From Octopus sinensis (Eukaryota), in the NCBI RefSeq assembly GCF_006345805.1, contig NC_043007.1:42470001-42534000 (forward strand): a stretch of DNA of 64,000 nucleotides, given 5' to 3'. Positions 1 through 38,600 of this stretch are shown here, piece after piece; the stretch's first letter is position 1; each line of letters starts with the position of its first letter. Made by a program: the position numbers.

Positions 1-918
1 ATATTATAATCAAGCATTAAGAGAAGGGATGGAGACCTAGAAAAAGCTTTGTATCTACTGTTAAATTTCCTTTCAAATGTGCAGATTGTTTATAAAATTA
101 CTTTCCAGTGAAATTAAATCTGTTTTCACTGATAGAATTAAATATCTCTCACTTTCTGTTCAAAGATTTACATAATTTTTTTACGAAGTTTGAATAATTA
201 GCAATTCTGGAGTTTCAAGTTAAGATTAAGAATTAACCAAATAGAAAGTAGATCAACTGATTTCTGCTCTTTTAATATTCAAGGAAATCAAAGCAAACAG
301 AAATCTATCACTCACTTTATGATTTAAAGCAAGGCACACTCCAGATCTCCACTGATAACGGATATCAGTTAATTCCTCCAAAAACTTTGCCGCCACTTCC
401 ACAGAAACCTCAAGTAAGACACCATTTTACTTTATTAATGTCCAATCAGGGTTCCTTCATCCAGCTCATTAATTATTATCACTTCATTTACTTATATATT
501 ATCTTCATTGTTATGCAGAATTTGCGATGCCATTGTATTGGGTGTCACTGTAACCTTGTATAAATTTCTTGTTTAGTTGGAAAATATGATCATGTTTTGG
601 GAAATTTTCAAAAATTTAATCTGTGTAAGAAATTATTACTTCCACTATTAAACTAAAAATTTATAATTTAGCAACTACATTCTTTTTATTAGGTTTAGAT
701 TTAGGCAATAATGTGATCTAACTTTCCTATTGCACCTAGTAAGGCTTGTAAACTTTGGCATGATGCCTATTTGGAAAGGAGACCATTGAAACTAGGTTAT
801 CTGTTTATTGCTGTGGTTCTCAAATTGTGTGCTGCAAAGCACTGGTGCACTCTAAATATTTAAATAAAAATATATAATTTTAGGCTTCAGAAAATTCATT
901 CCAATATTATTTTATTCA

Positions 919-997
<79 letters not shown>

Positions 998-35587: not shown

Positions 35588-35625
<38 letters not shown>

Positions 35626-38600
35626 CATGCATGTATCTGCATGCTTATTTACATCTGCTCTTCCTTGAAATTCTCGTTAGAATCAGTGATGCTGTCATTA
35701 TCCTTGTCAATAAGAAGTCATGAGAAATGAGTGTCAGTGACAAGAGCATATGCCTGTAAAACAATACAGTGGACAGTAGTTTGATTGATGATTTAGTAGA
35801 GTGTCCCTTGAGGTCTGACAATAACACACACACATACACTGATGTGCATATATGCAAGCAAACATATTCATAGGAACGATGTGGTGGAAGTGTCTGCTTA
35901 TAAAATCCATGTTTTGTTTGTTATATGTAATTGATTAAATATTGCTAAGAATGGATGTAAAAAGCACCTGTGCTGGTACCACATAAAGAGCACTTGTGCT
36001 GGCATTATGTAAAAATACACTCTGTAAAGTGGTTGGCATTAGGCAGGACATCAAGCCACAGGAATCATGCCAAAACAGAAAATTGGAACTTGGTGCAGCT
36101 CTCCAGCTTGCCAGCCCCTTGTTAAACTGTCCAACTCATGCCAGTATGGGAAACAAACGTTAAATGATGGTGATGATGATGATCATCATATCCAGAGGTC
36201 ATGTTACCCAAATGTGAGTATCCTGAATGATTAAGAGCTTCACTAATGGTCAAAACTCAGAAACATCATGCATAACACATACCTTCATACACCCACTTGC
36301 ATGCATACACGCACCCTCTGTAAATTTTAAAATTTCAGCAAGTCAAATCTGTTAATAGTAATTTCTCTCTAACTGTAGGATTTCAAAAAAATATTGCCAC
36401 CAGTTTCTGTTGTTGATAAATGTAAACAAGAAGCTGGGTGATGAATGGAGCCAAACAGATGATACCCTCACTGCTGACAATTCCTTCCTGATTATTCAAG
36501 AACATGCTAATTTTTAAAAAATATATATATATATATATTTATATTACAACCATATTAATATATATTATTTGATATTCGTAATCAATAAAAGGAAATAATG
36601 AATTTGCAAAATTATCATCAAGACTTTCTTTTCATTTGATCTCAGTTTTTCTATGTAAACCTTTAAAGTCTTGTTCATAATTAACAGCAACTGTTGCAGT
36701 TTATTAAGTAAATGTATGGGTATTTTTCCTTTAATTTTTGAACATCATGGCAAATAATGCCTCAAACATTGAGTTAAAGCTTGGTAATATTATTCATTAA
36801 TGATTTAAATAGTATTTGAGGGAAAGAGCTTAGACTTGGAAAAAATAATCAGTAACATTTCAGTATCTTCTGTACACGTCAGCATGAAATTTATAGAGAT
36901 TTATTTATGAAGGAGTGCATTGATGCTTTTACTAGTAAATGGTGAGGATTAAAAAGAACATTACTTTATTGATATAATGGTAGGTTTATTATTGTGATGA
37001 GAGTAAATAACACTAATTTATAATGTAGGCCTATCCTGGAATGTTTTTTTAATGAGAGTTGTGCAGCGTCCAAGTTAGAGATTACTAGAGCACAAATTAA
37101 GCTCTATGACAGGAAATCAACACCTAGAAATCAATAACTTGTAAATATGTGAAAATCAACTTACCTGGGCAGGTGAAAATGATGTGACAATAGGTAAAAA
37201 TTACAACAATAGGAAAAGCCCAAACTTATAATGTTCACCAACTGTCATTGAAAAATCATGCAATAGCTATCTTCACGGTTTTTACACTGGATTGACTGCA
37301 TTTCATCAAAATTTCTGGTTTCTAACAGGATTGGAAAATTTATTGAGAAAGCACTTTTGTCGAATGTATTTCTTATTTATATTGTTTTGAATTGATTACA
37401 CTTGTAGCTTCAAGATATCAAAGATGTGTTTGTATATTTTTAGAATGACGTTATAAGGTAGGTTTTAAATAAAACAGGCAGAATATTTGGGCTGATTATG
37501 GCTAGATTAAATGCTAAAGGGTTCAATTAATATTAGTTTAATGTGCTATAAAGACCCTACTGAGCCACGGATTATTCATGTTCATTTCTAACTAGAATAG
37601 CTTCTAATTCCGCATTAGTCTATGGAATGAGAACCAGGGGAAATAACTCTACAGTGTTGTCCATTGAATTGCAAATAGTTTAGACAATTGGACTGCTAGC
37701 TGAAGGCTCACTACTCCATATCCTGCCACAGACACTGCATGGTATCTATAACTTGGTCCAGATTGCAGTAAAAAGATACCAATTTTTGAAGCTGTGAGAA
37801 GCAGAGTTACTGTAAATTAACAAATGTTTAATTAGCTTACTTATTACAGTACTGAAAAAAGCAACAAGAAGCTGCTCCAGTATTCACATCAGCTAGTTCT
37901 GCCTTTCAGCCTAAGCTCTCATTACTGGCTTCTGGTGGTTTTGAGCATAGACACAGGACTACACGTTTGGGGCATGGAACAGTTGATTATAGTAGTCCCA
38001 GTGTTTGACTAAAAGATAGAGTTGAACATAGAGTATAAAGTGGCACTACTAAACACTGCAAGATATTTTGTCCAGCATTCTCTAAATTTTGTCAGTCCAC
38101 ATGTGTCAAAAGCGAGATTTGTATTAACTCTCATGAAATCACTCTGCCACTTCCTGCTTTAAATTGATCTAAATAAAAACCTTCCTTAAAAATTTCATGT
38201 TAATTTGTGTTCCAAATACCAGCTCAGTAATGACAAAATTATTTTATTAAATTATTCATTATTTTCAAAATTGATTAAAACAATGGCAGGGTATTTCAAC
38301 AGAAATATGAAAACAAATGGGGTTCATAAAAACATCTCTTTATAGTGGAAATAACTTGGGCAATTTGATTTGGTTTTAATAAGTAAATAGATATTTTTAT
38401 GTTTTAAACATTCATTGAATTAGATAAAATTCCCCAAATTTGGCATAAAGTCAACTGAATTGATGCCAATACTGGTTCTTTTTCTTCTTCCTGTGGTATG
38501 ATAAAACAAATCAATTCCAGATGATTTTCACTCACAATGTAAAGATACATAACTGAATACTGCAACCCATGTAGTCCATAACTGTAATGTTTCTTTTATA

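What the first reader, a model, noticed from the sequence alone, without database searches (positions are those of the whole stretch)
15..36441. Tandem pair of highly diverged SPATA17 paralogues
Seen in sequence: two same-strand genes with homologous exons and matching phases (36/36, 149/146 and 130/130 nt, QKPQ|GPFL junction, DFK last exon). Amino-acid divergence is high, yet B splices into an unbroken 981-nt frame (~326 aa). Known: SPATA17 is usually a single-copy IQ-motif protein of sperm and cilia. Inference: an old, possibly cephalopod-specific duplication. A stays closer to the family consensus, while B evolved fast but kept its frame, suggesting a specialised sperm or ciliary role.
Basis: partly seen in the sequence, partly recalled or inferred. 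Interest (0 to 1): 0.8.

Follow-up and report, generated by a model that had tools for sequence, protein, structure and literature searches.

The report
Two tandem diverged SPATA17-family genes
The window holds the tail of one gene and all of a second, very different copy of SPATA17, a calmodulin-binding stalk protein of the central pair of motile cilia and sperm tails; this is an ordinary old gene duplication, and the second copy seems to have one calmodulin site fewer.

Summary
Gene A (+ strand, last five exons only, 15..4153) and gene B (+ strand, ending at 36441) share exon sizes (36/36, 149/146, 130/130 nt), phases, the QKPQ|GPFL junction and a DFK last exon. Searched exon by exon against the PDB, 2 of 2 A exons and 4 of 7 B exons match mouse SPATA17 (9IJJ chain 3B), and two B exons also match Chlamydomonas FAP305. 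These proteins are the rachis of the central-apparatus C1a arm.

A and B are 34% identical over 152 aligned residues. Synonymous sites are saturated (pS 0.78, pN 0.40), so the duplication is old.

B shows two IQ motifs where mouse and Chlamydomonas have three. Its penultimate coding exon has drifted beyond recognition against mouse.

A is closer to mouse than B on both comparable exons (14 sites against 4, hand count). Whether the duplication is cephalopod-specific, whether B is expressed and what the source organism is could not be tested: no eukaryotic database or RNA-seq was available. Verdict: new member of a known kind, modest interest.

The parts
15..50 (+). Gene A, 36-nt exon (first A exon visible; the window begins inside gene A). 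One leading base, 11 codons (IKRRDGDLEKA), two trailing bases.
   Evidence: AG at 13-14, GT at 51-52. Open in this phase.
284..413 (+). Gene A, 130-nt exon ending ...PLPQKPQ in phase 0.
   Evidence: Not searched against the PDB (cap reached). No Pfam family.
2486..2634 (+). Gene A, 149-nt exon starting GPFLDP..RYKPLKPTLRV; conserved C-terminal block of SPATA17.
   Evidence: PDB 9ijj_3B residues 259-306, E 8.8e-5, 26.1 bits. 22/48 identical to the B exon, z = 12.
3176..3305 (+). Gene A, 130-nt exon (..KYQPLLH..YG.KYFRE..ISDK).
   Evidence: PDB 9ijj_3B residues 318-353, E 6.5e-4, 23.2 bits.
4115..4153 (+). Gene A, last coding exon DFKTCISNSSYA, stop TGA at 4151-4153. First AATAAA downstream at 4422.
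13900..17100 (.). Domain where CpG is not depleted (observed/expected 0.8-1.5, against a window median of 0.19). GC peak of 0.51-0.54 at 14800-15100. Candidate promoter region of gene B; partly made of repeat copies (16012-16228, 16843-17080).
   Evidence: The promoter role is inference only.
15547..15617 (+). Gene B, tentative first coding exon (71 nt): ATG, 23 codons (MSHLQYLNFRVECQLIKQLYVKR), two trailing bases, donor aaa|gtaagt.
   Evidence: One of two ATG-initiated, phase-compatible candidates with 8 of 9 donor matches between 14000 and 23348. The other is 21013..21098 (a shorter candidate from an in-frame ATG at 21073 uses the same donor). Lies inside the CpG-rich domain. No PDB hit at E<=10. 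Unproven.
23349..23430 (+). Gene B, 82-nt exon with an IQ motif (LRTDAAIVIQRNWRGYKARVYFAHYFW).
   Evidence: Pfam IQ PF00612, E 1.5e-8, 34.1 bits (cut-off 20.3). PDB 9ijj_3B E 8.2e-5; aligns to each of the three mouse IQ motifs.
25052..25102 (+). Gene B, 51-nt linker exon (TRYYEKCINHYEKMATK), phase 0 to 0, ending immediately before the next IQ.
   Evidence: One of 2 of 122 AG..GT open candidates that pass the splice thresholds in 23440-27790. By hand, 6/17 identical without gaps to mouse 97-113 as printed. Too short (17 aa) for the PDB tool.
27800..27903 (+). Gene B, 104-nt exon starting IQKVWKGYYSRKY... (last IQ motif and the helix after it).
   Evidence: PDB FAP305 7n6g_4Q residues 99-131, E 5.7e-5; 9ijj_3B residues 114-144, E 0.046.
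28970..29122 (+). Gene B, 153-nt exon ending ...HHLISTAVIPGVYNSPF, a motif conserved from Chlamydomonas to mouse.
   Evidence: PDB 9ijj_3B residues 151-198, E 1.5e-5; FAP305 residues 162-183, E 0.014.
30722..30757 (+). Gene B, 36-nt exon (YMISNHLSKQI), same phases as A 15..50.
   Evidence: The only AG-N36-GT candidate in the intron. Strong splice signals are rare in shuffles, 4 of 500. Sequence similarity to A is not significant.
30888..31026 (+). Gene B, 139-nt exon ending ...GLQKPQ in phase 0. The acceptor at 30888 is the one that fits the phase; an AG at 30890-30891 would break it.
   Evidence: No PDB hit at E<=10. Not significantly similar to the A exon.
33377..33522 (+). Gene B, 146-nt exon starting GPFLNP..RYKPLNPNL.
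   Evidence: PDB 9ijj_3B residues 259-299, E 3.6e-4, 24.0 bits. Reciprocal tblastn with the A exon, E 1.3e-9, within the window.
34359..34488 (+). Gene B, 130-nt exon (..KYEPRI..YG..NFRE..), strongly diverged.
   Evidence: No SPATA17 hit at E<=10; four capsid chains at E 1.5-1.8, taken as chance. 12/43 identical to the A exon, z = 4.8.
36379..36441 (+). Gene B, last coding exon DFKKILPPVSVVDKCKQEAG, stop TGA at 36439-36441. AATAAA at 36584.

Best explanation
The locus carries two head-to-tail, same-strand genes of the SPATA17/FAP305 family. They are products of an old tandem duplication, and both have been kept as protein-coding genes.

What the family does (from papers): SPATA17/FAP305 is the 'rachis' of the C1a arm of the ciliary and flagellar central apparatus. 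It is an elongated protein that leaves protofilament 3 of the C1 microtubule and attaches to the SPAG6/PF16 spring scaffold. It carries calmodulin on its N-terminal IQ helices and gathers the SPAG17/PF6 head complex.

What gene B looks like: it keeps the recognisable family blocks, namely the IQ helices, the ..STxxxPGxYNSPF motif and the GPF..RYKPLxPxL block. It shows only two IQ motifs, 36 residues apart. That is exactly the IQ2-to-IQ3 spacing of mouse and Chlamydomonas, so one 23-residue IQ unit is missing or its exon was not found. Its penultimate coding exon has diverged.

Inference: B makes a C1a-type rachis that binds two calmodulins instead of three and has an altered C-terminal contact surface. 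It would be used in a subset of motile cilia or in sperm, while A (only its tail is visible) is the more conservative copy.

Shown: gene structure, family assignment, age, open frames. Inferred: expression of B, calmodulin stoichiometry, any division of labour.
For: Structure:
- Five exon pairs have identical phases and equal or near-equal sizes, and all internal junctions are AG/GT.

Family assignment, searched exon by exon against the PDB:
- A: 2 of 2 exons hit 9ijj_3B 'Spermatogenesis-associated protein 17' (E 8.8e-5 and 6.5e-4).
- B: 4 of 7 exons hit it (E 8.2e-5, 0.046, 1.5e-5, 3.6e-4).
- Two B exons also hit Chlamydomonas FAP305, 7n6g_4Q (E 5.7e-5 and 0.014).
- The hits fall in the same order along the 379-residue mouse chain as the exons do along the DNA: IQ region, 114-144, 151-198, 259-299.
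- Pfam IQ on B exon 2, E 1.5e-8.

IQ spacing:
- IQ to IQ in B is 19 + 17 = 36 residues.
- Mouse has 78 to 114 and FAP305 has 63 to 99, both 36. IQ1 to IQ2 is 23 in both.
- No further IQ-like frame was found on the + strand from 4154 to 27799.

Selection:
- pN 0.40 against pS 0.78 over 95 codons.
- All ten B exons are free of stops.
- From the base counts, a random frame of about 300 codons stays open with probability of the order of 1e-10 (my hand calculation).

Independence of B:
- A has its own stop, with AATAAA 269 nt downstream.
- B has its own IQ exons.
- The only large domain of undepleted CpG in the first 37 kb lies between the two genes, over B's candidate first exon.

Function of the family, passages read:
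- PMC9113940: FAP305 is the C1a rachis, with CAM1, FAP7 and the PF6 complex.
- PMC11949450: SPATA17 is treated as the human homologue of FAP305.
Against: - No expression evidence of any kind is available for A or B.
- B's first exon is a guess. It has no PDB hit, and a second candidate, 21013..21098, scores the same on the donor.
- If a coding exon was missed, the count of two IQ motifs would be wrong.
- Three of 7 B exons searched have no SPATA17 hit: the candidate first exon, the QKPQ exon and the 130-nt exon.
- Two of the five A/B exon pairs are not significantly similar in sequence.
- Only one IQ motif of B reaches Pfam.
- Saturated synonymous sites make dN/dS undefined. Selection on B alone, or recent loss of function, cannot be measured.
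- The number of IQ motifs in A is unknown because that part is off the window, so 'B lost one' is relative to mouse and Chlamydomonas only.
Confidence: 0.75

Rival explanations
1. B is a non-functional or untranscribed duplicate, an unprocessed pseudogene whose exons happen still to be open, and only A is the working SPATA17.
For: B's 130-nt exon has lost detectable similarity to mouse SPATA17. One IQ unit is apparently missing. No convincing first exon was found. No expression data are available.
Against: Synonymous sites between A and B are saturated while pN is 0.40. A copy left unconstrained for that long would not keep about 300 codons open in 35% GC sequence; the chance is of the order of 1e-10 (hand calculation). 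All nine splice-site pairs are canonical. Motifs shared with Chlamydomonas are retained. A recent death of B cannot be excluded.
Confidence: 0.12
2. The duplication is not lineage-specific but ancient, predating cephalopods or even the protostome-deuterostome split. A is the true orthologue of vertebrate SPATA17 and B is a separate old paralogue lineage. A's greater likeness to mouse would then reflect orthology, not a faster clock in B.
For: Amino-acid identity is 34% and synonymous sites are saturated. At 14 sites A equals mouse and B does not, against 4 the other way (hand count); this is what orthology of A would also give.
Against: Nothing here speaks against it, and nothing tests it. B's IQ and middle exons match mouse and Chlamydomonas well, which does not discriminate. 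A's matching exons are off the window.
Confidence: 0.4
3. A and B are not separate genes but parts of one transcription unit: duplicated 3' exon clusters used alternatively, or read-through.
For: Same strand. About 11.4 kb lies between A's stop and B's candidate start, and no other gene was detected there.
Against: B has its own copies of upstream exons, not only the 3' cluster: the IQ exon, the linker, the second IQ exon and the 153-nt exon. A ends in a stop followed by AATAAA. A domain of undepleted CpG separates the two.
Confidence: 0.05
4. The two copies are an assembly artefact: uncollapsed haplotypes or a mis-join.
For: None beyond the tandem arrangement.
Against: The copies share no DNA match at E<=1e-10. 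Nucleotide identity is 49-53% in the best exons. Intron lengths and repeat content differ. The window has no N.
Confidence: 0.01

Closest known systems
Mouse SPATA17 (PDB 9IJJ chain 3B, 379 aa; in situ sperm central apparatus, PMC12297659)
   Same: Same order of blocks: IQ helices, helix after the last IQ (114-144)..ST..I.G.YNSPF (151-198), GPF..RYKPL.P.L (259-306). In A only, also the KY.P..H..YG.K.FR..ISDK block (318-353). Spacing of the last two IQ motifs is identical, 36 residues.
   Different: B has two recognisable IQ motifs against three, and about 324 codons against 379 residues. Its equivalent of 318-353 is not detectable, and the 199-258 linker is unrelated. Identity on the GPFL block is 23/48 for A and 17/41 for B (hand counts). 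Only the C-terminal part of A can be compared.
Chlamydomonas FAP305 (PDB 7N6G / 7SQC chain 4Q, 427 aa; C1a rachis, PMC9113940)
   Same: B's second IQ exon is closer to FAP305 99-131 (E 5.7e-5) than to mouse. The HHL.STA..PG..NSP motif is shared (E 0.014). The presumed role is the same: calmodulin-bearing stalk of the C1a arm.
   Different: No detectable similarity of the C-terminal exons of A or B to FAP305 (searches list none). FAP305 has three IQ motifs.
Generic IQ-motif necks (for example myosin-Va, PDB 2IX7 / 2DFS)
   Same: B exon 2 matches the IQ consensus (Pfam PF00612) and myosin-5A IQ repeats at E 0.017-0.028.
   Different: Those proteins share nothing with A or B outside the IQ motif. 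SPATA17 is the best hit for that exon and the only family hit for the non-IQ exons.

Membership tests
SPATA17 / FAP305 (central-apparatus C1a rachis) | Tandem N-terminal IQ calmodulin-binding motifs (three in mouse and Chlamydomonas, spaced 23 and 36 residues) | tested here: inconclusive
   B has two IQ motifs, 36 residues apart. A third was not found, but B's 5' end is unresolved. A's IQ region lies outside the window.
SPATA17 / FAP305 (central-apparatus C1a rachis) | Conserved motif ..H.L.ST....G.(Y/F)NSP(F/Y) after the helix that follows the last IQ | tested here: met
   B exon 28970..29122 matches mouse 151-198 (E 1.5e-5) and FAP305 162-183 (E 0.014). A: off the window.
SPATA17 / FAP305 (central-apparatus C1a rachis) | C-terminal block GPF..(x)..RYKPLxPxL (animal SPATA17) | tested here: met
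   A E 8.8e-5. B E 3.6e-4. Both align to mouse from residue 259.
SPATA17 / FAP305 (central-apparatus C1a rachis) | C-terminal block corresponding to mouse 318-353 | tested here: inconclusive
   A is met, E 6.5e-4. B has no SPATA17 hit at E<=10 and is only weakly similar to A (12/43, z = 4.8).
SPATA17 / FAP305 (central-apparatus C1a rachis) | Grouping with SPATA17 orthologues in a gene tree or by reciprocal best hits across eukaryotes | not testable with these tools
Only the PDB could be searched, and there SPATA17/FAP305 is the only family hit outside the IQ motif.
SPATA17 / FAP305 (central-apparatus C1a rachis) | Location on C1 protofilament 3 in the C1a arm and binding of calmodulin | not testable with these tools
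   Known for mouse and Chlamydomonas from PMC12297659 and PMC9113940 (passages read).
IQ calmodulin-binding motif (Pfam PF00612) | Score above the curated cut-off of the IQ model | tested here: met
   B exon 23350..23430: 34.1 bits against a cut-off of 20.3. The second IQ is split over two exons and was not tested whole.

The most novel reading that the evidence does not exclude
B is an expressed, tissue- or sperm-specific variant of the C1a rachis that carries two calmodulins instead of three. Its stalk would be shorter by one 23-residue IQ unit, about 3.5 nm if helical (my arithmetic), and it has a remodelled C-terminal anchor. The animal would then build two kinds of central apparatus with different calcium control of the C1a arm.
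Probability: 0.2. Interest if true: 0.55.

Novelty: new member of a known kind. Interest (0 to 1): 0.3.

Why it matters
SPATA17/FAP305 is the scaffold on which the C1a arm of the central pair is built, and it carries the arm's calmodulins. Loss of the C1a arm goes with immotile sperm in man (PMC11949450, passages read).

A second, long-retained copy with one IQ unit fewer would be a natural experiment on two questions: how many calmodulins the arm needs, and whether sperm flagella and epithelial cilia can use different rachis proteins.

For annotation, the practical points are these:
- The two genes must not be merged.
- B has a 51-nt exon (25052..25102) that is easy to miss.
- B's 5' end needs transcript evidence.

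As it stands this is an ordinary old tandem duplication of a known gene.

Tried and rejected
- **All-against-all tblastn.** Frames from 1..14000 against 14001..40000 were swamped by interspersed repeats and the output was cut. I replaced it with exon-wise comparisons.
- **First exon of B.**
All are repeat-like or have poor donors.
  - 77-nt candidates, the size needed with the 51-nt exon, gave seven. None is convincing.
  - A short N-terminal motif scan, [YF][YF][FY][RK], found three hits between 4154 and 23349, all next to stops.
- **Third IQ exon.** Classic and loose IQ patterns over both strands, all 54 open AG..GT candidates in 23433..25050, and a degenerate pattern over 4154..23348 (two hits, one within a repeat-covered segment, the other beside one, and neither IQ-like) found nothing.
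- **Third gene copy.** Each exon peptide against the whole window in six frames gave only the reciprocal A/B GPFL hit (E 1.3e-9) and weak chance hits.
- **ESM Atlas.** A's GPFL exon scored at most 0.81, to unrelated clusters; no lead. The second call was not used.
- **dN/dS.** Undefined because pS is 0.776, above 0.75.
- **Pfam on 30 long open frames.** These lay between and after the genes. Results were a weak DDE_3 (E 0.0044, below cut-off) and two sub-threshold chance hits.
- **Rfam.** No match at gathering thresholds over the whole window.
- **Literature on SPATA17 copies in molluscs.**
  - Of 129 papers holding SPATA17 or FAP305, 25 were listed. Only one concerns a mollusc (Pomacea, PMC13072017), and it treats a single SPATA17 transcript.
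  - Searches were swamped by general mollusc papers; none of the 35 papers listed holds the SPATA17 term searched. They do not show that nothing is in print.
  - An Octopus sinensis gonad transcriptome paper has no occurrence of 'spata' or of 'spermatogenesis-associated' / 'spermatogenesis associated'.
- **Not done on purpose.** The spliced exons were not joined, so there was no whole-protein search, fold, complex prediction or tree.
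Full report
**What is in the sequence**

This confirms two same-strand gene pieces.

Gene A is cut by the start of the window. Five exons are visible:
- 15..50 (36 nt)
- 284..413 (130 nt, ending QKPQ in phase 0)
- 2486..2634 (149 nt, starting GPFL)
- 3176..3305 (130 nt)
- 4115..4153 (DFKTCISNSSYA, then stop)

Gene B has the matching series:
- 30722..30757 (36 nt)
- 30888..31026 (139 nt, ending QKPQ)
- 33377..33522 (146 nt, starting GPFL)
- 34359..34488 (130 nt)
- 36379..36441 (DFKKILPP..., then stop)

Phases are the same in all five pairs, and every internal junction is AG/GT. 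The start (15) and end (36441) given in the finding are exact.

**Is the likeness more than chance?**

Exon-wise global alignments were tested with 2000 shuffles each:

| Exon pair | Identical | Shuffles reaching the score | Note |
|---|---|---|---|
| GPFL | 22/48 | 0 of 2000 | z = 12 |
| 130-nt | 12/43 | 0 of 2000 | z = 4.8 |
| Last | 4/12 | 29 of 2000 | |
| 36-nt | 2/10 | 314 of 2000 | not significant |
| QKPQ | 11/39 | 292 of 2000 | not significant |

Overall identity is 51/152, or 34%.

The 36-nt exon of B is the only AG-N36-GT candidate in its intron. Such a candidate is expected by chance, with a mean of 2.7 per shuffle. One with a pyrimidine-rich acceptor and a GTAAG/GTGAG donor appeared in only 4 of 500 shuffles (thresholds set after the fact).

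None of the exons overlaps the interspersed repeats that cover 10,512 nt of the window. A and B share no DNA-level match at E<=1e-10. No third copy exists in the window.

**The rest of gene B**

Upstream of the shared series, B has:
- an IQ-motif exon, 23349..23430
- a 104-nt exon starting with an IQ, 27800..27903
- a 153-nt exon, 28970..29122
- a 51-nt exon, 25052..25102 (TRYYEKCINHYEKMATK), which I found between the two IQ exons. It is one of 2 of 122 open AG..GT candidates that pass simple splice thresholds. It ends exactly where the next IQ begins.

Exon 23349 has no in-frame ATG, so B needs an upstream coding exon.

The best candidate first exon is 15547..15617: ATG, 23 codons, donor aaa|gtaagt, right phase. 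A second candidate, 21013..21098, has an equally good donor. The first has no PDB match.

With 15547..15617 the ten exons sum to 975 nt (324 codons plus stop).

Therefore no whole-protein search, fold or tree was made.

**What the genes are**

Each exon of 20 residues or more was searched on its own against the PDB. Ten searches were allowed: two on A, seven on B, one on a transposon relic.

- A: both exons searched hit 9ijj_3B, 'Spermatogenesis-associated protein 17'. They align at 259-306 (E 8.8e-5) and 318-353 (E 6.5e-4).
- B: four of seven exons hit the same chain.
  - First IQ exon: E 8.2e-5.
  - Second IQ exon: 114-144, E 0.046. Chlamydomonas FAP305 99-131 scores better here, E 5.7e-5.
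  - 153-nt exon: 151-198, E 1.5e-5, and FAP305 E 0.014.
  - GPFL exon: 259-299, E 3.6e-4.
- B: three exons had no SPATA17 hit at E<=10. These are the candidate first exon, the QKPQ exon and the 130-nt exon.

Pfam recognises only the IQ motif of exon 23349 (E 1.5e-8). The second IQ is split by an intron and could not be tested whole.

The order of the hits along the mouse chain is the order of the exons on the DNA. B is therefore a SPATA17-family gene and not some other IQ protein.

**What the family does**

From passages read:
- FAP305 is the rachis of the C1a arm of the Chlamydomonas central apparatus. [quoted passage not shown]
- 9IJJ is the in situ mouse sperm central apparatus. In it SPATA17 binds SPAG6 and forms stalks with three calmodulins (PMC12297659).
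- SPATA17 is treated as the human homologue of FAP305. It disappears from sperm of men with SPAG17 variants and a defective C1a arm (PMC11949450).
- A review lists it among the conserved C1a-c-e proteins (PMC7999657).

**How B differs**

In mouse the three IQ motifs start at 55, 78 and 114. In FAP305 they start at 40, 63 and 99. The spacings are 23 and 36 in both.

B's two IQ motifs are 19 + 17 = 36 residues apart. This is exactly the spacing of the second and third motifs.

By sequence, however, B's first IQ and the residues before it look most like the first mouse IQ and its flank (my reading of the printed alignment).

Either way, one 23-residue IQ unit is missing or lies in an exon I could not find. 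Three scans found none.

B's 130-nt exon no longer matches mouse, while A's does.

**Age and selection**

Summed Nei-Gojobori counts over 95 ungapped codons give pS 0.776 and pN 0.401. Synonymous sites are saturated, so dN/dS is undefined and the duplication is old. The large excess of pS over pN shows purifying selection along most of the path between the copies.

At this base composition a random frame of about 300 codons stays open with a probability of the order of 1e-10 (hand calculation). This argues that B was constrained for most of its history. It does not exclude a recent loss of function.

**Is A the more conservative copy?**

On the two exons comparable in both genes, I counted by hand from the alignments printed:
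- 14 sites where A equals mouse and B does not
- 4 sites the other way

The hand chi-square is 5.6 with 1 degree of freedom, p about 0.02.

It covers only about 90 C-terminal residues. It also assumes that mouse is an outgroup to the duplication. If the duplication is older than that split, the same numbers would simply mean that A is the orthologue of vertebrate SPATA17.

**Independence of the two genes**

- A ends in a stop, with AATAAA 269 nt downstream. B has AATAAA 143 nt after its stop.
- The window is strongly CpG-depleted (median observed/expected 0.19). A domain from about 13900 to 17100 has 0.8-1.5, with a GC peak at 14800-15100, just upstream of B's candidate first exon.
- I take this as a possible unmethylated promoter region. 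Part of it is repeat copies, so the inference is weak.
- No other gene was detected between A and B or downstream of B. Short exons of unknown genes would escape these checks.

**What stayed unchecked**

- The source organism.
- Whether other cephalopods or molluscs have one or two copies.
- Whether SPATA17 is single-copy elsewhere.
- Any expression of A or B.

The open genome collection holds only bacteria and archaea. Supplements of papers were closed.

I found no paper on SPATA17 copies in molluscs among the 25 listed of 129. Two further searches were too unspecific to show absence.

**Verdict**

The family assignment and the old age of the duplication are supported. The faster divergence of B is supported for its C-terminus only. 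The lineage-specific and functional parts of the interpretation remain open.

This is a new member pair of a known family. The one feature worth a follow-up is the apparent loss of one calmodulin-binding unit in B.

Noticed in passing
window 13900-17100: The only large stretch of the first 37 kb where CpG is not depleted (observed/expected 0.8-1.5 against a window median of 0.19), with a GC peak of 0.51-0.54 at 14800-15100. It may be an unmethylated promoter region. It partly coincides with repeat copies at 16012-16228 and 16843-17080.
   Followed up: partly
window 56300-57100: A second, smaller CpG-rich patch (observed/expected up to 1.6) next to a transposase relic. No gene was identified there.
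   Followed up: partly
window 26383-26598 (+) and about 19900-20950 (+): Decayed mariner-type transposase frames inside B's introns. The first has a weak match to Mos1 transposase (E 0.039, motif PDLAPSDYHLF) and no Pfam hit. I labelled the second mariner-like only by eye, from motifs (recalled resemblance).
   Followed up: partly
window 57353-57935 (-): Open frames with a weak DDE_3 endonuclease match (E 0.0044, below Pfam's cut-off). Probably a Tc1/mariner-like relic.
   Followed up: partly
window 3868-4056, 10763-10976, 16843-17080, 17645-17874, 31050-31268, 39939-40161, 50387-51380, 55617-55806 and others: An interspersed repeat of about 200 nt with up to 13 copies in the window. Repeats cover 10,512 nt in all. 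One copy ends 59 nt before A's last exon, and one starts 24 nt after B's QKPQ exon. The family was not identified; Rfam found nothing.
   Followed up: partly
window 62482-62574 (+): Weak tblastn hits of A's 130-nt exon (E 0.037) and, within that stretch at 62506-62535, of A's QKPQ exon (E 1.9), with a stop in the frame. Taken as chance.
   Followed up: no
window 900-1000, 4900-5110, 47100-48100, 49700-50470, 63666-63872: Many microsatellites and low-complexity runs (CA/TG, TA-rich, long AAT and CTT-type runs that read as poly-N, poly-I and poly-L frames), seen in the ORF lists.
   Followed up: no
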